This document shows positions 1,682-39,596 of a stretch of DNA of 64,000 nucleotides, in pieces. The DNA comes from Escherichia coli. GTDB lineage: Bacteria > Pseudomonadota > Gammaproteobacteria > Enterobacterales > Enterobacteriaceae. Below the pieces are notes generated by a model. It saw nothing but the letters and a program-made list of their open reading frames with translations. It was not told where the DNA came from and did no database searches. The translations under genes and the position numbers were made by a program. Location: NCBI RefSeq assembly GCF_011045215.1, contig NZ_CP049201.1. The stretch is one strand, 5' to 3'. The stretch's first letter is position 1. Each line of letters begins with the position of its first letter.

Positions 1682-3169
1682 TTAAATCACCTCTTCGATA
1701 ACCCACACGCTAACGCTGCCGCCGTTGCAAAAGAAGGTCGCTTCGCCGTTTTCGTCGGTTACTACACTCTCTTGCCGGTTCCCAAGAAAATCACGCCAGG
1801 TTTTATTGCCGTAATTCTCTCCCAGATGAATGGTTTTTTCGCCATCATCCCCGTTCGACATGACCACCACGCAGCCGGGATATTCGTCAGTGCCACTGCG
1901 GCTAAAGGCAATGCAGTTCGGATGGTCGAAAAATAACGTCTGTACACCGTGGGCGAAACGCTGACGGGCGAGAATTAACTCATCAAGCTGTTCGATTATT
2001 GGCATATCTATCGGATAGGTTTGCCCGTCACCACCGACATCTTCGTAATGCGCACCGTAGAGGTCCGGATAGAATACCGAAGGAACGCCATTTTCCCGCA
2101 ACAAAATTAAGGCGTACGCCAGCGGTTTAAACCACGGTTCGACCGGCGCTTCGAGGGCTTGCAACGGTTGGGTGTCATGGTTGGCAACGAGGGTTACGGC
2201 GTGAAAAGGATCGGCTTCCACCAGCGTCCCAGTGAAAATCTGCGTCATGTCGTAGTCGCGTCCCATGCGCGATGCTTCATGGAATTTCATCTGCAGCGGC
2301 GCATCAAACAGCATGGTTTTGCCTTCCACCTGATCAATATACGTTTGCAGTTTATCGACTTCATGCGACCAGTACTCTGCCACAATAAACAGCGGCTTTG
2401 GCGCAACTTCCTGTACGTGTTCGATCCACTCTTTATAAAACCACGCCGGAATATGTTTGACCGCATCAAGACGAAAACCGTCGCATTGTGTTTGTTCCAT
2501 CACCCAGCGCGCCCAGTATTTAATCTCTTCCGTCACGGCATGATTGCGGAAATCGATATTCTCACCCATCAGATAATCGAAATTACCTAATTCATCATCA
2601 ACCTGATCGTTCCAGCCTTCGCCGGTGTAGTCGTTAACAATTTTAAATATGCCATCTTCATCAGGGTTTTCGATATGGTCGATACCGCTAAAACATTTGA
2701 AATCCCAGATAAACTGTGAGTATTGCCCGGCACGGGCGGGGAAGGTGTAACGCGTCCAGCCTTCGCACTCAATGATTTCTTCATCAATTTGCGTACGGTC
2801 GTCAGCATTTACACGCTGCACGCGAATAGCTTCTTTTTCATCCGCGCCCATTTTGTGGTTGACTACCACGTCCAACAGCACCGCAATGTCATTACGTTTC
2901 AGGGCGTCAATGGCGGCCAGCAGTTGTACTTTATCGCCATATTTAGTAGGGATGCTGCCTTTCTGATCAAACTCACCTAAATCAAATAAATCATAGGAGT
3001 CGTAGCCGACCGAATACCCGCCCGATGCGCCTTTATAGGCGGGCGGCAACCAGACCATATTGATACCAATATCATTAAAACCGTCGGCGCGCTCGGCCAG
3101 TTCAGGCCAGAGCTTACCGCCTTCCGGGTAATACCAGTGAAAACATTGTAACAGCGTGGGATTACGCAT
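1682..3169 (-). CDS. amyA: cytoplasmic alpha-amylase
   Basis: 495-aa ORF, glycoside hydrolase family 13 motifs ([22 protein letters not shown]); flanks fliT as in E. coli. Confidence 0.95.
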
Positions 3170-3246
3170 TCTTCGACTCCATTCAAGGGGAACATTAGAA
3201 GCGTAGCCGTAATCGGATTATTCGCGAGCCATCGACTCATTCAGAT

Positions 3247-3612
3247 TCAAAAGAGGTTATCCTGCGGAGCCAGCACAAAGCCGCCCTGATCGCCATAGGC
3301 ACTTAACACCGATTTTTGCACCGATGACTGACCGACCAGTTTCGCCAGTTCATCCATCCGAATCTGTAATAACTGCTTTACCTTGCTTTCGTTGTCGAGA
3401 ATCAGGCGCAGCATCGGGCGGAGCTGCTCCTGCATCGTGGTGGACGGGTCTATTTCTTCAGTCAGATGTGCAATCTCCTGCACCGCATTCACATACGCCA
3501 TTTCGCTGGCGATGAGTTCGTCCCATTGTTCTTCCGTTGCCAGGCGTAACATGAGCTGGCTTTTTTCGACGAGTTGTTGCCAGGCGAAATACAAATGCGG
3601 TGCATGGTTCAT
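3247..3612 (-). CDS. fliT: flagellar export chaperone / FlhDC anti-activator FliT
   Basis: 121-aa ORF immediately downstream of fliS in the fliDST operon. Confidence 0.9.
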
Positions 3613-4022
3613 CAGACTGGGTCCTGAATCAAAGAAGGGGAGAGTAACGACTCTTTCCAGGCATCGGCAATATTGCGCATTAATGCTTCCACTTCTTCGA
3701 CTGCGGAGACATCGTTGCGTAAATTGGCTTGCAGCAAGCGCCTGACCATATAGCTATAAAGAGCAATCAAGTTTTGGGTTAATTCGTCTTTGCTCTCTTC
3801 ATCAAGACTCACCCGCAGTCCGTTCTCAATGATGTTGATCGCTTTTGACAAAGAGACGCCTTTGCCTTGCTGATTGTTGTCCTGCATAAACAGGCGCGCT
3901 CTAACCAGTGCGCTCAGCACTCCATCAAATAGCATGGTGACCAGCTGCTGCTGGCTGGCGCTCATTACGGCGCTTTCGACGCCAATTTGTGCATAGGCCT
4001 GGGTGCCTTTTGCCGCGTACAT
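3612..4022 (-). CDS. fliS: flagellin-specific export chaperone FliS
   Basis: 136-aa ORF, position between fliD and fliT. Confidence 0.9.
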
Positions 4023-4046
4023 GACCTGTCTCCCGATGAATAATGA

Positions 4047-5453
4047 TTACTTGGAATTACTGTTGTTTTCGAACTGCTGCGTTAAGTAGCTGCTTGTGCT
4101 GTTTAACGAGGTCATTAAAACGTCCAGTTGGGTAAATTGTTCTTTGTAGCGCGCGACCTGCGCATCAATGCGATCGCTGGCGGCGTTGTAGTCTTTAGTT
4201 AATTTATTCAGGGTCTTACTAACGCCATCGGTAGCGGCTTTAATAATGCCCGTTGTCGAAAGCCAACTGGTCAGGTTGCTGCCGATGGTGGTCGTGATGC
4301 CGGTTTTTTTACCATCGCCAACAATCAATGCACCTACGCCGCTGGCATCTTTTTTCAGTGCAGCGGTGAGTTTGTCGGCATCCAGTTCCAGTTTGCCATC
4401 GCTGGGATCGGTCGTGATATCAATCTGCGCCAACGTTTTATAGCTGGAAGAACTGACGGTATTACTCAGCATCGATTTCAACTGCGTCTGAATCGTCCGC
4501 AGCGTGGAGTCGCCGAGCAGTGCGCCATTGCTAGAACTCTGGCTATCAGCTCCTGCATCTACGGCGGTGTATTTGGTCAGGCTGCTGAAGGTATCTATTA
4601 GCGAGTTATAGGCATTCACCCAGTCTTTAATCGCCGTTTGCGCTTTGGAGGTGTCCTGAGTGATGGTCAGCGTCTGGTTGCCCGTGGTGACATCGTTCAG
4701 GTTCAGGGTGATGTTTTCCAGCGCGTCGCTGATGGTGTTGCTGCTGTTCTCAATGGCGACGTTGTTGACCGTCAGCTGCGCATTCTGGGCGGCGACCGAG
4801 ACTTCCATGCCGTTGCTGCTGGCACTGGCGTCATAGCCCATAAAACTTTGTAGCGCATCATCACCGCTGACCGAGAGTGTCATCGCATTGTCAAGGCCGG
4901 TGTCATTTGATGTGACTGACAGACGATATTCACCGTTACCCACGTTAATGATGCTCGCACTTACGCCCGCTTTTGCGTTGTTGATGGCATCACGGATCCC
5001 GCTTAACGACGAGTTAGCCGCGCTGATATCAATGGTAATCGGATCTTTGTCGCCGCCTTGTTGAATGGTGAGTTTACTGTCGCTGGTGGCGATCGCCGTT
5101 TTCGTCTCGTCTCTGGTGGTGCGCGTGGTCAGGGTTTGCGCCTGCGCCAGATGGGTGACGCTGATGGTGTATTTCCCGGCGATAGCGTTTCCCGCAGTGG
5201 TGGCACTGAACGCGGTGGTGCTGCTGGTGGTGCTGGTGGCGGAAAAAAGATCAGCTTTAGACAATGCAGTATTGGCGGTCTGGAAAGTCGTCAGCGCGCT
5301 TTTCAGCGTACCGTAGGCGCTAAGTTTAGCGGTAAACGACGATTGCTGATTTGATATAGGGGTTAGCGTCGCTTTTTGCGCGGCGGTGAGGCTATCGAGG
5401 ATTGAACTTAAATCCAGACCTGACCCGACTCCCAGCGATGAAATACTTGCCAT
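4047..5453 (-). CDS. fliD: flagellar filament capping protein FliD
   Basis: 468-aa ORF, Ser/Thr-rich, divergent from fliC. Confidence 0.95.
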   Translation of the reverse strand: MASISSLGVGSGLDLSSILDSLTAAQKATLTPISNQQSSFTAKLSAYGTLKSALTTFQTANTALSKADLFSATSTTSSTTAFSATTAGNAIAGKYTISVTHLAQAQTLTTRTTRDETKTAIATSDSKLTIQQGGDKDPITIDISAANSSLSGIRDAINNAKAGVSASIINVGNGEYRLSVTSNDTGLDNAMTLSVSGDDALQSFMGYDASASSNGMEVSVAAQNAQLTVNNVAIENSSNTISDALENITLNLNDVTTGNQTLTITQDTSKAQTAIKDWVNAYNSLIDTFSSLTKYTAVDAGADSQSSSNGALLGDSTLRTIQTQLKSMLSNTVSSSSYKTLAQIDITTDPSDGKLELDADKLTAALKKDASGVGALIVGDGKKTGITTTIGSNLTSWLSTTGIIKAATDGVSKTLNKLTKDYNAASDRIDAQVARYKEQFTQLDVLMTSLNSTSSYLTQQFENNSNSK

Positions 5454-17527: not shown

Positions 17528-17603
<76 letters not shown>

Positions 17604-17656
17604 GTTTAAAAGGCATCGGCGTCAGCGGATGTCTGGCTGAAAGGCCTGAAGAATTT

Positions 17657-17730
17657 GGCGCGTTAACAAAGCGGTTATGTAGCGGATTGCAAATCCGTCT
17701 AGTCCGGTTCGACTCCGGAACGCGCCTCCA
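17657..17730 (+). tRNA. cysT: tRNA-Cys (anticodon GCA)
   Basis: GGCGCGTTAACAAAGCGGTTATGTAGCGGATTGCAAATCCGTCTAGTCCGGTTCGACTCCGGAACGCGCCTCCA. Confidence 0.95.
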
Positions 17731-17742
17731 CTTTCTTCCCGA

Positions 17743-17829
17743 GCCCGGATGGTGGAATCGGTAGACACAAGGGATTTAAAATCCCTCGGCGTTCGCGCTG
17801 TGCGGGTTCAAGTCCCGCTCCGGGTACCA
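17743..17829 (+). tRNA. leuZ: tRNA-Leu (anticodon TAA)
   Basis: GCCCGGATGGTGGAATCGGTAGACACAAGGGATTTAAAATCCC...GGGTTCAAGTCCCGCTCCGGGTACCA; long variable arm typical of tRNA-Leu; its 3' 55 nt are duplicated at 39473. Confidence 0.95.
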
Positions 17830-17898
17830 TGGGAAAGATAAGAATAAAATCAAAGCAATAAGCAGTGTCGTGAAACCACCTTCGGGTGGTTTTTTTGT
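17775..17898 (+). repeat. attL: 124-bp direct repeat (3' 55 nt of leuZ plus 69 nt downstream including terminator hairpin)
   Basis: Identical by eye to 39473..39596; sequence diverges immediately outside both copies. Confidence 0.85.
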
Positions 17899-18370
17899 AT
17901 TTGTATTTTGAGCAATGGCGGTAGAGTGGCGGTGGTGTGGCGATATGCAGAAACAACAATGGTAGTGCACGTGCTGTTTAAGCTCTAAGGATGAAGCAGA
18001 ATTCTCCTGCAGCTCCTCCGTATTTCGCATAGTGAACCAAGACTTCGGTTAAACAAAATTTTTCTGGGATTTTTCCACTCGACTTCATTTTTCCTCCAGT
18101 CATCCACCAAAGGTACCTGCGCTAATCTATCTTTTTTAATCTGACAACATCCTGAGAAAAGGCAAATTCGTCAGATTTACTGTTTTTTCTACTGCTTCGA
18201 ATGCCGATGTCTGCAGTACTGATAAGAGCTCTATCTCTTTGATATAGATCTTTTATTTGATGAATTGCTCGACATATTATCGTTATGACACCTTCTTGTT
18301 AAAGGTGTTGTACTCCACATCTCGATTTTATGATGTGGGTTATGATTGGTTAGTAATAGAGTGTATCGGT

Positions 18371-18652
18371 ATGCGATGTGGTTTATTAATGGCAATCTGC
18401 TTTTGTTTGGTATCTTTTAGTGGGTATGCAGCAACAGGAAAGTCTGATGTTCAGATCAAGAAAGAAATAATTAAAGAATCCATTGAATCATATCCAGGCA
18501 ATTGTGCGTGTCCTTATAATCATGCAAGGAATGGTAGTAGGTGTGGTGGACGCAGTGCATATAGCCGTACTGGAGGGTATGATGTGGTATGTTATGAGAG
18601 TGATGTTACTGATGAAATGATCCGGCAATGGAAGCAGGAGAATGCTGATTAA
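18371..18652 (+). CDS. small Cys-rich secreted protein of unknown function (prophage cargo)
   Basis: ORF 18257..18652; probable start MRCGLLMAICFCLVSFSGYA (signal peptide) followed by GNCACPYNHARNGSRCGGRSAYSRTGGYDVVCYESD; AT-rich; followed by hairpin terminator 18729..18761. Confidence 0.5.
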   Translation: MRCGLLMAICFCLVSFSGYAATGKSDVQIKKEIIKESIESYPGNCACPYNHARNGSRCGGRSAYSRTGGYDVVCYESDVTDEMIRQWKQENAD

Positions 18653-18843
18653 TTACTTTTGACTGGTTTGTTTTGCGAGCATTATGTGTGTTGTTAACGG
18701 TACCCTAGCTAAGTGAGAGTTCCAAAATAAAACCCGCAGTTTTTACGCTGCGGGTTTTATTGTTTCTGTCGATGGGATAGGGTGCCACTTCGGCCAGCCT
18801 TGGCAACCGATTGACGGGGGATTACTCCCCCGTCGCGGTTTCC

Positions 18844-18984
18844 TTACTGCTTACACTGTAAGAACGCCGCAAACTCCGCTCCCCAGAAGCTCATCCGTAT
18901 TTCACACAGCGAACCGTGCAGCATCCAGATGATGAGGATTACCGTCACGCAGAACGTGATGGCCGTAAGCGATTTTTGCGACAT
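18844..18984 (-). CDS. Hok/Gef-family type I toxin (46 aa)
   Basis: Manual translation MSQKSLTAITFCVTVILIIWMLHGSLCEIRMSFWGAEFAAFLQCKQ: single TM helix followed by SLCEIR and ...AAF motif as in Hok/Gef; AGGAG-like SD upstream; too short for the ORF track. Confidence 0.7.
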   Translation of the reverse strand: MSQKSLTAITFCVTVILIIWMLHGSLCEIRMSFWGAEFAAFLQCKQ

Positions 18985-19165
18985 AGCGCTTGCTCCTTTT
19001 TAGGGGAGGCGCTAACCTATCACTTGCTAAGGTTAGATGGTTAGGGCCTCGGTTAAACAGGGATGTTTTCCGGGGCCTTTCCACATCTGGCCTTCGGGCA
19101 TACCCTCCGACCATCAGCCGAAAGGCACCCGCGCGTAATCTATCGTTTTTTTGTTGCTTCGGCAA
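18902..19165 (-). other. mok-like overlapping reading frame upstream of and overlapping the hok-like gene
   Basis: 87-aa ORF in another frame that starts upstream of and runs across the hok start, the arrangement seen for mok in hok/sok loci; sequence itself not recognisable. Confidence 0.35.
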
Positions 19166-19174
19166 TTCTGCTCG

Positions 19175-19435
19175 TTAATTCTGAGGTAAAGGCAAACTCA
19201 TCTGATTGTTTCCCCTGTGTGACGTTGGCAGTTCATGCCACGGGATACCTTCTGAAGATCGAACGCCTGAGGTGTGTTTCGATGTGAATTTATGGAAAGC
19301 TTCCAGTGTTGAGAAGCATACGCCGCATTCCAGGTTGTTACACTGGTAATACTTTTGTCGGACGGTGTTTGAATCATTTTCCGGACGACTTGTGCGGATA
19401 CGGGCAGATGCGCCACAAAGCGGACAACGGAACAT
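19175..19435 (-). CDS. ogr: Ogr/Delta-family zinc-finger late-gene transcription activator
   Basis: MFRCPLCGASARIRTSRPENDSNTVRQKYYQCNNLECGVCF: CPLC...CxxxxC pattern and layout as in P2 Ogr (MFHCPLCQHAAHARTSR...YHQCQNVNCSATF). Confidence 0.8.
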   Translation of the reverse strand: MFRCPLCGASARIRTSRPENDSNTVRQKYYQCNNLECGVCFSTLEAFHKFTSKHTSGVRSSEGIPWHELPTSHRGNNQMSLPLPQN

Positions 19436-19678
19436 AGCAACCTCCCTTTAGGTGGTGCTATTCTAAATTTCATCAATGCAGATTCCAACTCCTTCCCACT
19501 TTAAGCGAAGGATGGTGATAAAGTCAGAAGATGTTAGATGAAATCTAAACGGGCGATAAGTTTTCCAATATTTGAATAACAACGTGGCAGGATTTTTGTT
19601 TATCAATTATCTTACACTTTTAAGTGTAATAAATTTGTTAGTGATGACAATATTGTGAGAGGAGATTATCAATTGAAG

Positions 19679-21077
19679 ATGGCAAAAAATAACAATGATA
19701 AAATGCGGGCAAAGTATAGGCCGTTCATAAATATATGGGAACATCTTCCTTCTGAGTTCAATGAACTCATCAAGACGTTAATGGTGCTGATACGGCAAGG
19801 GGAAAATGTGGGAGCTCAGCAAAGGGAGCTTGATTCCATCGAAAACTTCAAACACCTGTTAAGTGGATGGAAGCGGGCGCAAAGGATCATAGCTGATGAA
19901 CTCATTATCAGGCTTTCTCAAATCAAGGATCTGGAGTTAGAAAAGAATTGTGCCCATTCAAAAAAGGACTATGAAACAAAGAAGAAGTGTATACGCAATA
20001 TTGAAAGGACTAGACTAGAAATTAGGATTTTACGTAGGTGCATTGATTCAATTGTATGGGCGATATTCCGCAATGAACACTCGTCTATAAGACGTTTACC
20101 TATAAATAGAAATACTGACAATCTGACAATATTTAATATACATGATTCAATGGTGGTAGCAGATGAAATCAATGCTGATCCGATGGCTATAGCTGTTATC
20201 ACTGATATTACTACGTTTGTACATACTGGTGATTTACTTGCGTTAATACCTCAGCAAGGCATAACTTTAATTGAAATAAAAAGTGGTAAGAAAAATATAG
20301 AGTTTTCAAAGGCGGCTATGTTCTCAGTGCAAAGTAAATGTCTTCATTTTGATGAGATTTATAGAAAAGACCTTGATAAAAATGACTTGAAACACTATGA
20401 CAGAGCTAAGCGTCAACTTAAAAGAGCTCAAAATGTGATAGATGTCATTGAGACTGGTAAGGGATTTGATAACTTTTTTCAGTCTCAAGTAACAATTCAT
20501 GACAGAGATTTTTGTCCCGATTTTTATACAGATAAGATTATTGAGCTTTGGTATGAGATATATAACGGTAAAACTTGGGCGATTACTGACATTAATGATT
20601 GTTTATTCCTTGGGGCATATATTAATTCTAATATGGGTTTTTGCGGTTTTAATGGATGGATGGAGGTATCTAGAATATCGGGGAGAGTGGTTTAATATTC
20701 TTGATAGCTTTTCAGATGCTTTATCACGTCCATTTTTTAGTTTGAACCTACCTGATAAATTGCTTCTGGATATCATTAATGGCAATCTAATTGTTGTGCT
20801 GTGTTTCGATCATCGTCGTTTCGTAGAAAGAGCAAATAAAAAATACCCCGGGATTTATGAGTTATTGGATTTTCCATCTCCGAAGATTAATCCTATGAGT
20901 ATGCTTTCCATCAATGGGAAGGGGGTAGTTTCTAGTGTTGATGGACAGAGTGTTTTTATTGGAAATGGTTACGAAACTCGGATTATTTTTGATCAGCAAT
21001 ATCCAGATAGTCTGATTAAGTGGTCATACCATATGAGTGATCTCAAAAAAATATTGATAAAAAAAAGCGTAAAATGA
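19679..21077 (+). pseudogene. ~470-aa cargo protein with PD-(D/E)xK-like nuclease motif, interrupted by a frameshift near 20660-20690
   Basis: ORFs 19655..20695 and 20499..21077 overlap in different frames; protein-like sequence continues across frames around the direct repeat ggatggatgg; motif HTGDLLALIPQQGITLIEIKSGK (D ... E-x-K); AT-rich; upstream palindrome ttacacttt/taagtgtaa (19612..19629). Confidence 0.5.
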
Positions 21078-28211: not shown

Positions 28212-29450
28212 TTATAAAGAATTGCTACTTTCTAATTCTGGGTTTCTGGATCTATTTTTACAACCTAAATCCGAGTGGTAATTCGGTATATCGTTTGTCA
28301 AATCTTGTTTGATAGCATTAATTAAGATCATTATGTCGAATTTATGCATATCGTCGCCCCCTTCAGACCTTAGATGTTCGGATGTGGTGAGTTGAGTCGC
28401 TAATTTGCTGTTTGGCCCCCACACAATATTGTTTTCGAATTTTCCTTCATGCATTCTGTTATTATATATACAGTATTGTCTAATGTTTAATCCACTGGCT
28501 AAATGTACAATAGCAGTATCTACAGTTATAACAAAATCAGCATGGCGAACCAATGCAAATGAACATCCGGCATCAGAAAATGGAGATAGAGACACATTAT
28601 CCAATCCATTGTGATTAATCTGTTCTCCCATATTAAAAACTATTGTGTGATATCCCTTAAGGTTATTAAGGTAAGCTAGTACTTTGTTTATCTGTTCATC
28701 AGATAATGTTCTGCTATTCTGAGAACCATAAGGGTTAAATATAACTAATTTTTTGTTTTTCTTCCTGAATTCATTTGCAACAATATTTGCTGGTTCATAT
28801 ATTTTGTTGTCAAAATTAAGCGCTGCAGCATAATTATTATTTTTTATCTTTAGTAAAGATAAAACTTTTTTCATTCTTTCAGATGTGTGAATGGAACGAT
28901 TATCGATTATATTTGTATCAAAAATAGTTACGGCAGGATGATTAAAACAGATAGAGTGTTTAGGTCTAAGTAAATGTAGTGTTTGCAATCTGGTTATCGC
29001 TGTGTTATCAAAATTTGAGAAGTCAACAACAAGATCTACATTCAGTTTTTTTATCTTTGCTTTTAGTTCGTTAAATTTATTTTTCTCGTAAGATATAAAG
29101 GCATCCACGCCAACAATATCAGTAAAGAGGAATGATACTCTTGAAGGTGCTATCACATATACCACCATACCGGATTTTTGAAGTTGTTTAATAAACCCTG
29201 AGGTAACGATGCCGTCACCAATGGCTTGCATGTGCATGAAAATGCACACTGTTTTATAACTATCCGGCTGTAATGATGTTTTCCTTCTGTATCGCATTTT
29301 TAGAAATGCCAGTCTGGCCTTCGTCTTTATCTTTTTTGTTTTAATATTTCGCTCTCTGTTAAGCTGTTTTAATGATGAAATAACATTCATAATGGTACCC
29401 TGAAAATCCAAATCACACATGTCATCCGAAATGAGCAGGATACTATACAA
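28212..29450 (-). CDS. glycosyltransferase family 9 (LPS heptosyltransferase-like) cargo gene
   Basis: 412-aa ORF, very AT-rich; N-terminal ...MQAIGDGIVTSGFIKQL and C-terminal ...FVITVDTAIVHLASGLN resemble the GT9 motifs of WaaC/WaaF-type enzymes; start may be internal. Confidence 0.6.
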   Translation of the reverse strand: MYSILLISDDMCDLDFQGTIMNVISSLKQLNRERNIKTKKIKTKARLAFLKMRYRRKTSLQPDSYKTVCIFMHMQAIGDGIVTSGFIKQLQKSGMVVYVIAPSRVSFLFTDIVGVDAFISYEKNKFNELKAKIKKLNVDLVVDFSNFDNTAITRLQTLHLLRPKHSICFNHPAVTIFDTNIIDNRSIHTSERMKKVLSLLKIKNNNYAAALNFDNKIYEPANIVANEFRKKNKKLVIFNPYGSQNSRTLSDEQINKVLAYLNNLKGYHTIVFNMGEQINHNGLDNVSLSPFSDAGCSFALVRHADFVITVDTAIVHLASGLNIRQYCIYNNRMHEGKFENNIVWGPNSKLATQLTTSEHLRSEGGDDMHKFDIMILINAIKQDLTNDIPNYHSDLGCKNRSRNPELESSNSL

Positions 29451-33943: not shown

Positions 33944-34893
33944 TTACTCCTTGTCCATTGCGTACAGCCCATTAACCAGAGCAAACTGTGGCACCCCGTC
34001 CGCGATGAAAGTCGCATTAACTCCGCAGGCTTCGCGGATAGCGGGTGCCACAATCTCCGCCCCGCCACCGACAACCATCACCCGCCCGTAACCCGAAAAA
34101 ACCGCCAGCGCGCGGATCACGCGTTGTTTCAGTGTTTCTTCCTTTTCACGAATAACCGCCATCAGGCTGGCGTAATGCGCGTCATTGTGGATGTGTTGGC
34201 GCAACCAGGCTTCATCATGGCGATGTTCGATAATGGTATTGGCGATGTGGTGACTGGTACGCATACCGTTAGCGGCCATCACCGACAGCACGGCACCGGC
34301 CATCAGGGAGACGCCTACGTGTGGATCGCAAAACACCTGGCTGATACCTGCCAGTTGCCCCTGAACCTTTGCCACATCCAGCGTGGTTCCGCCTAAATCC
34401 ACAATCAGCAGGGATTCAAACGGACTCATGTCAGCCAGTGCTTTAAAGCCAGCCGGAATGGATTCAGGCATAACCCGCACGTTACGGATAGTGAATGCTT
34501 CGCCGTTCTGGTACTCCACCGGGCGCATAACGTTCGCTTTTTTGCGGTTGATGTTGGCCATGTCCGGCTGTGCGTTTGTGTCGAAATACTCGCTCAGTGG
34601 CAGGGTGACAACCACATCCACCTCCTGTGGCGTGATGCCTGATTTGACCAGCGTGTGATGAATGGCGATTACATTCACATCGCTGTACTGGTATTGCGTG
34701 TCGGTCGTCTGGACAAAGCGATCGCTGACCGGATCAAAACCATAGCGCACGCCATCAAGCATGTAGTTCGCGGGCTGCATGCCACCGAACGGCGCAGATC
34801 ATTCCGACTTGAAGCTGTTCGGGCTGATGGCGTTGCGGCGTTCGCCATTCTCAGTCCATGCCAGCTTGATGTTGGTGGAGCCGTCGTCGATAC
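33944..34893 (-). pseudogene. ParM/StbA-like actin-type ATPase with in-frame TGA nonsense codon
   Basis: MKICIDDGSTNIKLAWTENGERRNAISPNSFKSE-TGA(34799-34801)-SAPFGGMQPANY...; remainder matches ParM (VMPESIPAGF, IVDLGGTTLD, VMVVGGGAE); the stop replaces the Trp of R1 ParM KREWAVSFG. Confidence 0.75.
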
Positions 34894-34932
34894 AAATTTT
34901 CATGTCGCTTTTCCTTATGTTGATTAATTAAT

Positions 34933-35044
34933 CGTTTACGGGATTCTGAAATCCCGTTTTTGCCTGTTTTGTGTGCGCTTCATATATCGCGGCGCGTTTT
35001 TTGCTCATTTACGGGATTTGTGAATCCCGTTTCTGTCTGTTTTT
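34933..35044. repeat. two ~36-bp direct repeats, each with an internal dyad (acgggatt..aatcccgt), upstream of the parM-like gene
   Basis: tttacgggattctgaaatcccgtttttgcctgtttt (34933..34968) and tttacgggatttgtgaatcccgtttctgtctgtttt (35008..35044); candidate parC-like centromere/operator, or a remnant of a replication origin near the end of gene A. Confidence 0.5.
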
Positions 35045-36533
35045 TGTTTCCACTGGTCAGGCCACCCCGCAGCAGGTCTGCTTTGCGGCGGGCACGTTCA
35101 GTGGTTTCACTGATTCTCTGTGCGTGCTCTGCGTCGCGGATGGCGCGCAGCATGTCAGAAAGCACGGTAACGGGGGTTTTCATGGTGTTCTGGTCCTGCT
35201 GAAGTGTGGATGCCAGACGTGCGGCGGCTTCGAGGTCTGATGCCCCCAGCTGTTCCAGATAGCTGGCGACCGGGTTATGGCGGATCTCCGTGCTGCTTAC
35301 GCCGTGATTACGGCTCAGGCGCTGCCAGAGCTGCGTGATTCGGCTGTCCGGGCGGGTATCCGGTTTGCGTACAATTTCAAATCCCTGCGGTGCAATGATG
35401 CTGCCGTCAACGTACAGGCTGCCGCCCCGTAACAGGTGCTGCATCTGCTGTTCACCGATATGCATGCCGAGAGATTCGGCAGATTCCCGCCATTCTTTAG
35501 CGAGTAATTCGTGGTTATCAGGCAAAGGCCGCTGCTGTTTGCGGCTCTGTGTCCAGCTCTGCATTTCATCACTGCTGTTTTTTGCCTGTTTGTCACGCAG
35601 CGAACGCATCAGCGCCCGGCGTTCGTGCCGTTTCAGTGAGCGCACCCATTCATCCACATCAACGCCGTCAGGAAGCTGCGGCCACGGTGCTGGCCGTTCT
35701 TCCGGCTGTTCTGTCCCGTTGTTGTCCGTTTCCTGTACACGGGGACAGTTATTGCCACGAGTCCAAGGGGCGGCAGGGCCGCTCTGAAGGTCAAAACCAT
35801 TTTCGCGGGAGCTGTCTTCCGCTTCCGGTTTGCGTCTTACCAGCTTCCAGTTATCCGGATGCGTGCATACGCGGGAAGACTCCCCGATGAGCGGCGACCA
35901 GATCCCGTAAATCTGTACACTCTGCTCACCGTAATCGTTCAGTTCATCTGCGAGGTCGTAGGCGGTGCGAATCAGGTAGTCTTTGCGTGGAACAAGCACG
36001 CCACCCTGTTTTTCAATGTAGGTGGCAAAACACCCGGCATCAGCGGCAGCGAGTACCGCATCCATTGCGTCATCCTTCAGCCGTTGCGGGCCTTCCGGGT
36101 TGCGTGCCATCTGGCTGGCAAGGCGGCGCAGTTCACGCCACACCTGACGGGAGGGGATACCAAAGAACTGGAACTGGCGGACCCGGTGAAGGCGCGCCCA
36201 GCCGATGGCGCGTTCCACGCTCTCGGCCATTGATTTTCCGGTTTCGTGGTCAACGCGTGGCTTGCCCGTTTTCGGGTCGATGCCATCCACGGCGCGGCTG
36301 TCCAGGTTCTTTCCGATGTAGGTGGCGATGTAGCTGGTTGGCGTGCCTTTTGAGCCGTCGACGTACTCCGCCTTAAAACGCGGAGTTATGTCATCGCCCA
36401 GCTCGTGGCGGTCTTCCTGAATGGCAATATCGCAGACGTGGGACACGATGGTTTCAATCTCGTCCGGATGTGCAAAGACCATCATATGCCAGTGCACAGT
36501 GCCGTCATGGTGAGGCTCCAGCGGTGTATTCAC
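34980..36533 (-). pseudogene. replication initiation endonuclease gpA-like, N-terminally truncated
   Basis: 517-aa ORF begins within the region matching P2 A (LEPHHDGTVHWHMMVF vs P2 VEPHHDGTPHWHMMVF as recalled); the N-terminal part of a full-length A protein plus cox/B equivalents are missing. Confidence 0.7.
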
Positions 36534-38364: not shown

Positions 38365-39366
38365 ATGTCGGTTCGTAAAACTCCATCAGGTAAATGGCTT
38401 TGCGAATGTTATCCCTACGGAGCATCGGGAAAACGCATTCGTAAACAGTTTGCGACAAAAAGTGAGGCGCTCTCTTATGAGCGCCGTTTAATGAATAGTA
38501 GAGTTGGAGACGAGTTTCAAGATGGTTCTGGTCCTCGTCTTTCTGAGTTGATTGCTCGTTGGTTTGAGATGTACGGAAAAACCTTGTCCTCTGGTGCAGA
38601 GCGCAAAGTCAAACTTGAGGCGATTTGTTCTAGGCTGGGAGATCCATTTGCTTCTCAGTTTGACAAAAATATGTTTGCTACTTATCGGGAAAGAAGGCTA
38701 TCAGGAGAATGGAATCCCAAGGGGAAGAAAAAACTTAGTGAAGCAACCGTTAATCGCGAGCAGTCATATCTACATGCTGTTTTTGCCGAACTGAAGCGCC
38801 TTGGGGAGTGGTCTGGTGAAAACCCCCTGACTGGAATTCGCAAGTTTCGTGAGGAAGAAAAGGAGCTGGCGTTTCTGTATGTAGATGAGATTGAACGCCT
38901 TTTGATTGCGTGTGATGATTCACGGAATAAAGATTTGGGGGTTGTTGTCCGTATTGGGCTTGCGACTGGTGCTCGGTGGAGTGAAGCAGAAGGATTAAAG
39001 CAATCTCAAGTACTGCCCGGTCGAATCACATTTGTTAAAACTAAAGGAAAGAAGAACCGCACTGTACCGATTTCACCTCAATTGCAGGCTATGCTTCCTA
39101 AAAAACGAGGAGCGCTATTTTCACCATGTTATGAGGCTTTTGACGCTGCAATTAAGAGAGCGAAGATAGAGCTCCCTGATGGGCAATTAACTCATGTGCT
39201 ACGTCACACGTTTGCTAGTCATTTTATGATGCGGGGCGGAAATATTCTTGTGTTGCAAAAAATACTGGGGCATAGCGATATAAAAATGACTATGCGTTAT
39301 GCGCATTTTGCTCCGGGTCATTTAGAGGCTGCTGTTGAATTAAACCCTTTTGACAATAGAGGGTAA
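38365..39366 (+). CDS. int: phage tyrosine integrase
   Basis: 333 aa; C-terminal catalytic region HVLRHTFASHFMMRGGNILVLQKILGHSDIKMTMRYAHF (R...HxxR...Y); ~110 bp from attR. Confidence 0.9.
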   Translation: MSVRKTPSGKWLCECYPYGASGKRIRKQFATKSEALSYERRLMNSRVGDEFQDGSGPRLSELIARWFEMYGKTLSSGAERKVKLEAICSRLGDPFASQFDKNMFATYRERRLSGEWNPKGKKKLSEATVNREQSYLHAVFAELKRLGEWSGENPLTGIRKFREEEKELAFLYVDEIERLLIACDDSRNKDLGVVVRIGLATGARWSEAEGLKQSQVLPGRITFVKTKGKKNRTVPISPQLQAMLPKKRGALFSPCYEAFDAAIKRAKIELPDGQLTHVLRHTFASHFMMRGGNILVLQKILGHSDIKMTMRYAHFAPGHLEAAVELNPFDNRG

Positions 39367-39472: not shown

Positions 39473-39596
39473 TTTAAAATCCCTCGGCGTTCGCGCTGTG
39501 CGGGTTCAAGTCCCGCTCCGGGTACCATGGGAAAGATAAGAATAAAATCAAAGCAATAAGCAGTGTCGTGAAACCACCTTCGGGTGGTTTTTTTGT
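39473..39596 (+). repeat. attR: second copy of the 124-bp repeat (partial leuZ 3' end 39473..39527 plus downstream terminator)
   Basis: Identical to 17775..17898. Confidence 0.85.

What the first reader, a model, noticed from the sequence alone, without database searches (positions are those of the whole stretch)
18371..18652. Small Cys-rich secreted protein encoded next to attL
About 93-aa precursor with signal peptide and mature region GNCACPYNHARNGSRCGGRSAYSRTGGYDVVCYESD (four Cys, likely two disulfides), AT-rich, with its own terminator. Unrecognised by eye; could be a periplasmic effector or immunity-type protein.
Basis: seen in the sequence. Interest (0 to 1): 0.35.

Follow-up and report, generated by a model that had tools for sequence, protein, structure and literature searches.

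The report
Secreted mini-protein carried by prophage
This is a real, conserved gene for a small exported protein with two likely disulfide bonds, carried as cargo at the end of a decayed P2-like prophage next to the leuZ tRNA gene; it belongs to a large family with no curated description that phages and plasmids spread widely, and its function is still unknown.

Summary
Window 18371-18652 (+) encodes a 93-aa precursor with a Sec-type signal peptide (predicted cleavage after Ala20). The 73-aa mature protein has four nearly invariant cysteines. The gene is 40% GC and is followed by a hairpin terminator. It lies 472 nt inside a 21.7-kb degraded P2-like prophage bounded by a 124-bp leuZ repeat.

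It is not a spurious ORF. dN/dS against the O157 allele is 0.17. 587 of 5426 complete E. coli genomes have it joined to leuZ, and a profile finds 2290 protein clusters.

Pfam, NCBIfam, PADLOC and PDB give no significant match, and PHROGs holds it only as families with no informative function. The AlphaFold model (pLDDT 80.7) has no structural neighbour.

The domain is mostly stand-alone on phages, plasmids (including 4.6-kb colicin N plasmids, beside an Exc2 exclusion lipoprotein) and islands, with no conserved partner gene. In longer proteins it is fused to SH3_3, PG_binding_1, TonB_C, staphylococcal-type nuclease and GmrSD_C domains.

My reading is a periplasmic binding module delivered as prophage cargo (a "moron"). 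Its invariant cationic loop probably contacts an anionic envelope component. That step is inferred. "Effector" or "immunity" protein is not supported. Interest is moderate.

The parts
17775..17898 (+). Left copy of the 124-bp direct repeat (3' part of tRNA-Leu(UAA) leuZ plus its terminator). This is the prophage/chromosome junction on the ogr side.
   Evidence: Exact repeat of 39473-39596; tRNA-Leu at 17743-17829; terminator hairpin 17872-17893.
17950..18210 (-). Decayed second hok/sok-like copy lying between the junction and the ORF.
   Evidence: It aligns with the intact hok locus, including the ...GSLCEIR... coding remnant and leader motifs. Salmonella relatives have two intact hok genes in this slot.
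18371..18652 (+). CDS of the 93-aa precursor, stop codon included.
   Evidence: phrog_27544 at E 1.6e-59. dN/dS 0.17. 597 of 5426 E. coli genomes carry it.
18371..18430 (+). Predicted Sec (SPase I) signal peptide, residues 1-20 (MRCGLLMAICFCLVSFSGYA).
   Evidence: Heuristic only: hydrophobic window of 2.84, Arg2, G-Y-A before the predicted cut, no lipobox; equivalent segments occur in homologues.
18431..18649 (+). Mature 73-aa protein (8.1 kDa, pI 5.8): helix 26-40, Cys-stapled loop 41-75, helix 81-91.
   Evidence: AlphaFold2 model with pLDDT 80.7 and pTM 0.65; size and pI.
18491..18595 (+). Invariant cationic Cys-loop core (Y41-Y75). It contains C45, C47, C58 and C74 and the R61-S62-A63-Y64-S65-R66-x-G68-G69 motif.
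   Evidence: Column conservation over 290 domains; net charge +2 to +6 (5th-95th percentile) in 251 cores. The part from S37 to about G69/Y70 is the region shared with the 50-53-aa phage mini-versions.
18726..18761 (.). Hairpin terminator between the ORF and the convergent hok gene, flanked by A and T runs (probably bidirectional).
   Evidence: 15-pair stem, 6 GC pairs, T tail; sequence.
18844..18984 (-). Intact hok (Hok/Gef family toxin), the convergent neighbour.
   Evidence: RefSeq annotation of the identical locus; ORF.
18996..19130 (-). hok leader / sok-like region.
   Evidence: Rfam RF01794 sok, 40.7 bits, E 3.8e-7, below the gathering score of 59.
19175..19435 (-). ogr (P2 late-gene activator), transcribed towards the junction. 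It marks the conserved phage side of the cargo slot.
   Evidence: RefSeq 'ogr/Delta-like zinc finger family protein'. The same gene order occurs in Salmonella.
38365..39366 (+). Prophage integrase at the far end of the island.
   Evidence: Pfam Int_N 5.2e-32 and Phage_integrase 3.1e-22.
39473..39596 (+). Right copy of the 124-bp direct repeat (the other prophage junction).

Best explanation
The ORF is a genuine accessory ('moron') gene of a degraded P2-like prophage integrated at leuZ. It occupies the slot between ogr and the attachment site.

Shown or strongly supported:
- It is a stand-alone transcription unit. It runs opposite to ogr and hok, has its own hairpin terminator, and has foreign base composition.
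- It is under purifying selection.
- It is the stand-alone form of a large domain family that no curated library describes.
- That family travels mainly on phages, plasmids and islands, without a fixed partner gene.

Inferred from sequence:
- The precursor is exported by Sec and cut after Ala20. This releases a 73-aa periplasmic protein.
- Two helices pack against a loop stapled by disulfides C45-C58 and C47-C74. The pairing follows from phage mini-versions, which keep only the first pair.

Inferred mechanism (least certain):
- The loop is invariant and positively charged (R61-S62-A63-Y/W64-S65-R/K66-x-G-G, plus Y41, Y49 and D78). It is a binding surface for a conserved anionic component outside the cytoplasm, such as peptidoglycan or nucleic acid.
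- Elsewhere the same domain is fused to SH3_3, PG_binding_1, TonB_C, staphylococcal-type nuclease and GmrSD_C domains.
- Made on its own in a lysogen, probably in stationary phase, it would coat or occupy that ligand. That would alter the envelope to the benefit of host or element, for example by exclusion of or protection from incoming phage, colicin or DNA.
For: Gene reality and export:
- establish the ORF and its RefSeq call.
- dN/dS is 0.17.
- 225 of 286 homologues have a hydrophobic leader.

Cargo status:
- The gene lies within the island bounded by the 124-bp repeat.
- It sits between a decayed and an intact hok/sok locus, next to ogr.
- It has its own terminator.
- GC is 40% against 48-50% for island and chromosome.
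- It is absent from all 50,697 GenBank phage records, searched as full length.
- 587 of 5426 E. coli genomes have it joined to leuZ. A 67%-identical homologue occupies the same slot in Salmonella.

Family:
- 2290 clusters at E<=1e-3.
- The four Cys and P48 round to 100% conservation and S62 is invariant. R61, A63, G55, G59, G68, G69, S37, Y41 and G43 are at 98% or more.
- The core is cationic, with median net charge +4.
- The AlphaFold2 model has pLDDT 80.7.

Fusions:
- SH3_3 in 15 of 44 long members scanned.
- PG_binding_1 in 3, SNase in 3, GmrSD_C in 1 and TonB_C in 1.
- RefSeq annotates 'SH3 domain-containing protein' over plasmid hits in Rhizobium, Sinorhizobium and Brucella.

Link to mobile elements:
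- 71 viral contigs and 125 plasmids carry it.
- Other contexts include relaxase, integrase and tail-gene neighbourhoods.
- Col plasmids of 4.6-10 kb keep it directly downstream of an Exc2 family lipoprotein gene.

Disulfide pairing:
- Phage mini-versions (TL-2011b gp43 and Klebsiella phages) keep only the residues aligned with C45 and C58.

Expression:
Against: - No ligand, partner or phenotype is known, and no binding was tested.
- No promoter-like site was found upstream on the + strand.
- Export is predicted by heuristics only. The disulfide geometry of the model could not be inspected.
- The mature E. coli protein as a whole is mildly acidic (pI 5.8). Only the loop is cationic.
- Fusion partners are mixed (cell-wall binders and nucleases), so the ligand is ambiguous.
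- The Exc2 adjacency comes from one plasmid lineage.
Confidence: 0.5

Rival explanations
1. Dedicated superinfection- or entry-exclusion factor. The periplasmic protein blocks DNA entry or envelope penetration by competing phages, plasmids or colicins, in the way T4 Sp/Imm or plasmid exclusion proteins do.
For: - It is periplasmic and carried by temperate phages, conjugative and Col plasmids.
- It sits directly downstream of, and co-directional with, an Exc2 family lipoprotein gene in ColN/ColE1 plasmids as small as 4.6 kb.
- It lies in prophage cargo slots near tail-fibre and immunity genes.
Against: - It has no sequence or fold similarity to any known exclusion protein and no PADLOC hit.
- Very strong conservation across distant bacteria is unusual for factors in an arms race.
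- Fusion to SH3, PG_binding and nuclease domains in chromosomal and megaplasmid proteins points to a more general module.
Confidence: 0.15
2. Metal- or calcium-binding accessory domain analogous to Excalibur. The disulfide-closed loop N50-x-A/D52-x-N/A54-G55-x-x-C58 would bind a cation that supports partner enzymes such as Ca2+-dependent staphylococcal-type nucleases.
For: - The partner set (SNase, GmrSD_C/DUF1524, SH3) is the one I recall for Excalibur domains; that recollection is from memory and was not tested.
- The G-x-x-C spacing resembles DxDxDGxxCE.
- One family member (P0178) carries an Excalibur-like stretch by eye.
Against: - Pfam gives no Excalibur hit for any member, even at E<=1, and none for the P0178 stretch at E<=0.1.
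- The loop has at most one or two Asx residues and no Glu. Positions 52 and 54 behave as an either/or single Asx: A,N in 157 sequences and D,A in 44.
- The loop is net positive.
- The mini-versions lose C47 and C74, so a four-Cys metal site is unlikely.
Confidence: 0.1
3. Orphan immunity protein or enzyme inhibitor. It would be a periplasmic antidote to a peptidoglycan-targeting toxin (a T6SS amidase, colicin M-like toxin or lysozyme) or to a nuclease.
For: - It is a small periplasmic protein on mobile elements and in colicin plasmids.
- Its association with cell-wall and nuclease domains could reflect inhibitor-enzyme pairing.
Against: - No toxin gene is adjacent in the window or in more than 40 other contexts.
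- In Col plasmids the colicin immunity gene is a different, annotated gene.
- It does not match the Ivy, MliC, PliC or PliG families in Pfam, and there is no fold match.
- Conservation is far higher than is usual for immunity proteins.
Confidence: 0.08
4. Spurious or decaying ORF in junk DNA at the edge of a dead prophage.
For: - The prophage is degraded: it has no head genes, its gpA is truncated and a neighbouring cargo gene is frameshifted.
- No promoter was predicted.
- The product is not in the proteomics table that was searched.
Against: - dN/dS is 0.17, and synonymous sites are saturated while pN stays at 0.2-0.33 against distant homologues.
- The reading frame is intact in 578 or more genomes.
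- There are 2290 homologous clusters with invariant residues.
- The structure model is confident.
Confidence: 0.02

Closest known systems
PHROGs phrog_27544 (unknown function); its core also matches phrog_14503 ('membrane associated protein', moron category) and phrog_3117
   Same: It is a direct sequence member of phrog_27544 (E 1.6e-59, residues 13-93). The Cys-loop core, from residue 37 to 69/70, matches the two other families at E 6e-7 and 2e-6.
   Different: These are automatic clusters with no established function. The one annotation, 'membrane associated protein' on phrog_14503, seems to echo the 'transmembrane anchored protein' label on the mini-versions, which probably reflects the signal peptide. 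The phrog_27544 profile starts at residue 13, so it misses the true N-terminus.
'Transmembrane anchored protein' of phiV10/epsilon15-like phages (e.g. Escherichia phage TL-2011b gp43, YP_007001994.1) and of Klebsiella phages
   Same: Both have a signal peptide followed by the motif G-x-C-x12-C-G-G-R-S-A-x-S-R-P-G-G, and both sit in a cargo position in temperate phages.
   Different: These proteins are only 50-53 aa. They lack both flanking helices and the second cysteine pair (C47, C74).
Classical P2 accessory genes (old, tin, Z/fun) and other prophage morons such as lambda bor and lom (from general knowledge)
   Same: It is an independent transcription unit in a variable slot of a P2-type genome, with foreign composition. 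It is probably expressed from the prophage and is not needed for phage growth.
   Different: It is unrelated in sequence. It occupies a different slot (ogr-attP). Its product is periplasmic, and no exclusion or virulence phenotype is known.
Excalibur extracellular calcium-binding domain (Pfam PF05901)
   Same: Both are small, disulfide-closed extracytoplasmic mini-domains with a G-x-x-C loop. The fusion partners seen here (SNase, GmrSD_C, SH3) are those I recall for Excalibur.
   Different: There is no Pfam match. The acidic DxDxDGxxCE motif is absent and the loop is cationic. I do not file it as a member.
T4 Spackle (Sp) and other small periplasmic phage proteins that act on the envelope (from general knowledge)
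   Same: It is a small, Sec-exported, phage-encoded periplasmic protein of about 8 kDa.
   Different: No sequence or fold similarity was detected against the PDB. Spackle's target, the gp5 lysozyme, has no counterpart shown here.

Membership tests
Any curated protein family (Pfam-A 2025, NCBIfam 20.0, PADLOC 2.0) | A profile HMM hit at or above the curated cut-off | tested here: not met
   Pfam gives only Sclerostin, E 0.0081, 16.3 bits against a cut-off of 27. None of 37 homologues gives a consistent hit. NCBIfam gives 0 hits and PADLOC 0 hits.
PHROG phrog_27544 | A significant full-length match to the family profile | tested here: met
   E 1.6e-59, 199 bits, residues 13-93 against profile positions 1-81 of 81. 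The family has no known function.
Sec/SPase I-exported protein | N-terminal positive n-region, hydrophobic h-region, small residues at -3 and -1, and no lipobox | tested here: met
   Arg2; 11-mer hydropathy of 2.84; G18-Y19-A20 before A21; no L-[AS]-[GA]-C. This is a heuristic result; SignalP was not available.
Sec/SPase I-exported protein | Experimental export and cleavage | not testable with these tools
   It needs a PhoA fusion or N-terminal sequencing.
Prophage moron / lysogenic-conversion cargo | Lies inside the prophage in a slot that is empty in related phages | tested here: met
   It lies within the island bounded by the 124-bp repeat, between ogr and the junction. The full-length protein is absent from all 50,697 phage records. 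That those records include P2-type phages is my assumption.
Prophage moron / lysogenic-conversion cargo | Autonomous transcription unit with its own promoter and terminator | tested here: inconclusive
   The terminator at 18726-18761 was found. No sigma-70-like site was found on the + strand upstream.
Prophage moron / lysogenic-conversion cargo | Base composition unlike the surrounding phage genes | tested here: met
   GC is 40% and GC3 29%, against 48% for the island.
Prophage moron / lysogenic-conversion cargo | Expressed from the repressed prophage | tested here: inconclusive
Excalibur (PF05901) | DxDxDGxxCE calcium-binding motif and a Pfam profile match | tested here: not met
   The sequence reads N50-H-A-R-N-G-S-R-C58-G59. 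No Pfam hit at E<=10 for the query or at E<=1 for any of 37 members. There is a single Asx swap at positions 52 and 54.
Periplasmic immunity protein (T6SS or colicin type) | Encoded next to its cognate toxin gene | tested here: not met
   The neighbours are hok/sok and ogr. No toxin recurs next to the homologues. In Col plasmids the colicin immunity gene is a separate gene.
Known periplasmic lysozyme inhibitors (Ivy, MliC/PliC, PliG) and T4 Spackle | Sequence or fold similarity to the family | tested here: not met
Hok/Gef toxin-antitoxin locus (neighbour, not the ORF itself) | A Hok-family ORF plus a sok-like antisense region | tested here: met
   This applies to 18844-19130 only: RefSeq 'Hok/Gef family protein' and Rfam sok at E 3.8e-7, below gathering. 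The target ORF is not part of this locus.

The most novel reading that the evidence does not exclude
The CxCPY...CG-x-RSA[YW]S[RK]-x-GG domain would be a new, widespread extracytoplasmic fold. Phages, plasmids and ICEs would deploy it as a stand-alone periplasmic factor that binds a universally conserved anionic envelope or nucleic-acid ligand, and so excludes or disarms incoming competitors (phage DNA, conjugative DNA, colicins). Retention on 4.6-kb Col plasmids beside Exc2, and in dead prophages, would then reflect a new class of envelope-level defence or exclusion protein.
Probability: 0.15. Interest if true: 0.65.

Novelty: new member of a known kind. Interest (0 to 1): 0.38.

Why it matters
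About 11% of complete E. coli genomes, including O157:H7 (the CP-933T/Sp13-type remnant), keep this gene intact in an otherwise decaying prophage. Relatives sit on very small colicin plasmids, on Xanthomonas and Pantoea plasmids and in many temperate phages. A gene that so many unrelated mobile elements pay to carry, and that is conserved residue for residue across distant bacteria, probably does something useful at the cell envelope.

The family has no Pfam or NCBIfam entry, no solved structure and no detectable structural neighbour. Defining its ligand would annotate thousands of 'hypothetical' proteins. It could also explain the extra domain on a set of secreted nucleases and SH3 or peptidoglycan-binding proteins.

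If it proves to be an exclusion or protection factor, it would add a periplasmic member to the catalogue of defences encoded by mobile elements. If it is only a generic binding domain, the finding is a useful but ordinary DUF-type annotation.

Tried and rejected
- Curated family searches with the query and with 37 homologues (Pfam, NCBIfam, PADLOC) gave only sub-threshold hits typical of Cys-rich sequences (Sclerostin, ragweed allergen). I rejected these as compositional.
- I looked for a conserved partner gene in 8 genomic contexts and 34 diverse viral loci, using all-against-all clustering and a PHROG scan of 89 neighbours. There is none. The neighbours are typical cargo-slot genes.
- The Excalibur and EF-hand idea was rejected as membership.
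- Excalibur-like and 'YHYH'-like stretches that I saw by eye in N-terminal extensions were not confirmed by Pfam, so I make no claim about them.
- The promoter scan found nothing convincing on the + strand. The idea that the decayed left-hand sok promoter drives the ORF could not be tested.
- The 104-aa and 145-aa neighbours in Col plasmids have no signal peptide and no Pfam hit. They give no functional clue.

Full report
**1. What is in the sequence**

Window 18371-18652 (+) is an ATG-initiated ORF of 93 codons. It reads MRCGLLMAICFCLVSFSGYA|ATGKSD...GNCACPYNHARNGSRCGGRSAYSRTGGYDVVCYESD...QENAD. The mechanical ORF list extends it upstream to a TTG at 18257 (131 aa), and many metagenome gene callers do the same (130-aa hits). 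RefSeq calls the 93-aa form in an identical copy (WP_071589622.1, 'hypothetical protein'). All homologues align from a signal peptide about 25 residues ahead of a conserved 'SD.QIK' start.

The N-terminus looks like a Sec/SPase I signal. Arg2 is positive, an 11-residue window has Kyte-Doolittle hydropathy 2.84, G-Y-A precedes the predicted cut, and there is no lipobox. The mature product would be 73 aa, 8.1 kDa and pI 5.8.

The ORF is 40% GC with GC3 of 29%. The island is 48% GC and the flanking chromosome 50%. A 15-bp hairpin with a T tail lies 74 nt downstream at 18726-18761. It is flanked by A and T runs, so it probably also ends the convergent hok transcript. No sigma-70-like promoter was scored on the + strand upstream.

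**2. Where it sits**

The window is E. coli chromosome: uvrC, pgsA, then tRNA-Gly, tRNA-Cys and tRNA-Leu(UAA) (leuZ) at 17528-17829. A 124-bp exact direct repeat, made of the 3' part of leuZ plus its terminator, occurs at 17775-17898 and at 39473-39596. It bounds a 21.7-kb island.

The island is a degraded P2-like prophage. From left to right it carries:
- ogr (19175-19435, -) and gpD;
- tail sheath, tube, E, T and U genes;
- a tail fibre gene and its assembly protein;
- a ParM-like gene and a truncated gpA;
- an integrase (38365-39366, +) next to the right-hand repeat.

It has no head genes.

ogr and int are both transcribed towards the junctions, as they are towards attP in P2 (general knowledge). 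The ORF therefore lies in the ogr-attP interval, 472 nt inside the element and on the strand opposite to ogr.

To its right is an intact hok gene (18844-18984, -) with a sok-like leader (Rfam sok, E 3.8e-7, below gathering). To its left is a decayed second hok/sok copy at about 17950-18210. The context is a prophage cargo slot flanked by addiction modules.

**3. Is it a real gene?**

Yes.
- The CDS is present at 90% identity or more in 597 of 5426 complete E. coli genomes.
- 587 of these have it contiguous with leuZ. They include O157:H7, O111 and O121 strains.
- Against the O157 allele, dN/dS is 0.17. Against homologues from Salmonella, Pseudomonas, Oxalobacter and metagenomes, synonymous sites are saturated while pN stays at 0.20-0.34.
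- A Salmonella homologue with 67% identity occupies the same slot: leuZ, ORF, hok, hok, ogr, gpD.

**4. The family**

A word-indexed search found 181 homologues. An exhaustive profile search of 1.84 billion cluster representatives found 2290 clusters at E<=1e-3 and 1455 at E<=1e-10.

Over 290 domain copies the conservation is as follows:
- the four cysteines and P48 round to 100%, and S62 is invariant;
- R61, A63, G55, G59, G68, G69, S37, Y41 and G43 are at 98% or more;
- D78 is at 95%.

The signature is S-[IL]-x2-Y-x-G-x-C-[PA]-C-P-Y-x5-G-x2-C-G-x-R-S-A-[YW]-S-[RK]-x-G-G-x4-C-[YF]-x2-D-[VI]-[TS].

The 35-residue Cys-loop core is cationic: net charge +2 to +6 (5th-95th percentile), median +4. 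Positions 52 and 54 co-vary as an either/or single Asx, with A,N in 157 sequences and D,A in 44.

Nothing curated or informative matches:
- no Pfam family at threshold, for the query or for 37 homologues;
- no NCBIfam and no PADLOC hit;
- no PDB sequence relative (best E 0.98).

PHROGs holds it as phrog_27544, of unknown function (E 1.6e-59). The core also hits phrog_14503 and phrog_3117.

**5. Clues to what it does**

(a) Minimal versions. Temperate phages of the phiV10/TL-2011b type and Klebsiella phages encode 50-53-aa proteins made of a signal peptide plus G-x-C-x12-C-GGRSADSRPGG. They are annotated 'transmembrane anchored protein'. They keep the residues aligned with C45 and C58 and lack C47 and C74. 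This argues for disulfides C45-C58 and C47-C74 rather than a four-Cys metal site. It also marks the loop plus the RSA-x-SR-x-GG tail as the functional core.

(b) Architectures. Of 296 family members analysed, 188 are stand-alone, with a short leader and a short tail. Of 44 longer members scanned:
- 15 carry SH3_3;
- 3 carry PG_binding_1;
- 3 carry a staphylococcal-type nuclease, with the domain on either side of it;
- 1 carries GmrSD_C (DUF1524);
- 1 carries TonB_C.

RefSeq annotates plasmid-borne examples in Rhizobium, Sinorhizobium and Brucella as 'SH3 domain-containing protein'. All of these partners act outside the cytoplasm, on or near the cell wall or on DNA.

(c) Carriers. Stand-alone copies sit in mobile or variable DNA.
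- They occur in P2-like prophages, in a Pseudomonas island with lambda-type tail genes and a DUF927 primase gene, next to a MobA relaxase gene, and next to integrase genes.
- 71 IMG/VR viral loci carry the domain.
- 125 plasmids carry it, led by Xanthomonas with 36, Pantoea with 30 and Escherichia with 10.

Among 34 diverse phage loci no neighbour is shared by more than 6. The neighbours are tail fibres, methyltransferases, repressors and integrases, which are typical cargo slots.

The most striking case is the ColN/ColE1-type plasmids of 4.6-10 kb. They keep a 100-aa homologue directly downstream of, and co-directional with, an 'Exc2 family lipoprotein' gene.

**6. Best explanation**

The following are shown:
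- the gene is real;
- it is prophage cargo;
- the family is large and has no curated description;
- it is linked to mobile elements.

The following are inferred from sequence:
- Sec export, with cleavage after Ala20;
- two disulfides;
- a helix, Cys-loop, helix mini-domain.

The mechanism is inferred with low certainty. The invariant cationic loop would be a binding surface for a conserved anionic extracytoplasmic ligand, either peptidoglycan or nucleic acid. The stand-alone protein supplied by the element would then modify or protect the envelope.

My confidence is about 0.9 that it is a secreted cargo protein of a novel family. It is about 0.35 for the binding-module reading and about 0.15 for a specific exclusion role.

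**7. Rivals**

- A dedicated exclusion factor is supported by the Exc2 adjacency and the carriers. No similarity to known exclusion proteins and the unusually high conservation count against it.
- An Excalibur-like cation-binding domain fits the partner set and the G-x-x-C spacing. It fails on motif, charge and Pfam match.
- An orphan immunity protein or inhibitor has no adjacent toxin anywhere, and conservation is too high.
- A spurious ORF is refuted.

**8. Comparison and novelty**

Functionally it is one more prophage moron encoding a small envelope protein, which is a known kind. As a protein family it is absent from Pfam and NCBIfam, has no structural neighbour in the libraries available, and no paper mentions its motif.

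I rate it 'new member of a known kind' with moderate interest (0.38). The higher-interest reading, a new class of periplasmic exclusion or defence domain shared by phages and plasmids, is not excluded. It has no direct support.

Noticed in passing
window 17950-18210 (- strand): There is a decayed second hok/sok-like copy between the leuZ junction and the ORF. It keeps a '...GSLCEIR...' coding remnant and leader-like motifs that align with the intact hok locus at 18800-19200. Its former sok promoter would point towards the ORF.
   Followed up: partly
window 18844-19130 (- strand): An intact Hok/Gef toxin gene has a sok-like leader (Rfam sok 40.7 bits, below the gathering score of 59). It converges on the same hairpin terminator as the ORF. 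Salmonella relatives carry two hok genes here.
   Followed up: partly
window 19655-21077 (+ strand): A cargo gene between ogr and gpD is split into overlapping 346-aa and 192-aa ORFs. In strain 14EC001 the same region (99.7% identical, 2 gap positions) encodes one 487-aa hypothetical protein (WP_038820202.1). This is a frameshift or a sequencing error. Neither part has a Pfam hit.
   Followed up: partly
window 28212-29450 (- strand): A 412-aa ORF next to the tail-fibre and assembly genes has a weak Glyco_transf_9 (heptosyltransferase) match (E 7.7e-5, 22.6 bits, just above the cut-off of 22). It may be an LPS-modifying cargo gene of the prophage.
   Followed up: no
window 33944-36533 (- strand): A ParM/StbA-like actin segregation gene whose match to the StbA_N profile begins at position 43 of 158, so the N-terminus may be truncated (33944-34780). 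A 517-aa ORF matches only the C-terminal end of the P2 gpA profile (34980-36533). Together with the missing head genes, this shows that the prophage is a rearranged remnant.
   Followed up: no
L093 (NZ_CP087297.1, 4630-bp ColN plasmid) 369-2123; also L090, L092, L095: Small colicin N/E1 plasmids carry a co-directional block of four genes. In order they encode a 145-aa HTH-like protein, an Exc2 family lipoprotein, a 100-aa homologue of the ORF, and a 104-aa cytoplasmic hypothetical protein (WP_024139128.1). The last two also occur together on a 5.6-kb plasmid that has no colicin.
   Followed up: partly
L010 (Escherichia phage TL-2011b) 2953-3114; L011 (Klebsiella phage ST512-KPC3phi13.3) 2956-3114: These are 50-53-aa mini-versions (signal peptide plus a single disulfide loop and a GGRSADSRPGG tail), annotated 'transmembrane anchored protein'. 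They sit among ant, Bro-N and YafO-type cargo genes of temperate phages.
   Followed up: partly
L012 (O157:H7 strain ECP19-598) 2803-4343: In O157:H7 an IS30 element has replaced the hok-ogr segment immediately downstream of the ORF and has truncated gpD. The ORF itself remains intact.
   Followed up: no
L091 (Xanthomonas citri plasmid plB) 4920-5201: A Xanthomonas homologue (about 80% identical to the family consensus) lies on conjugative plasmids. It sits between an avrBs3 TAL-effector gene and a Tn3-family transposon, beside an NYN-domain gene.
   Followed up: no
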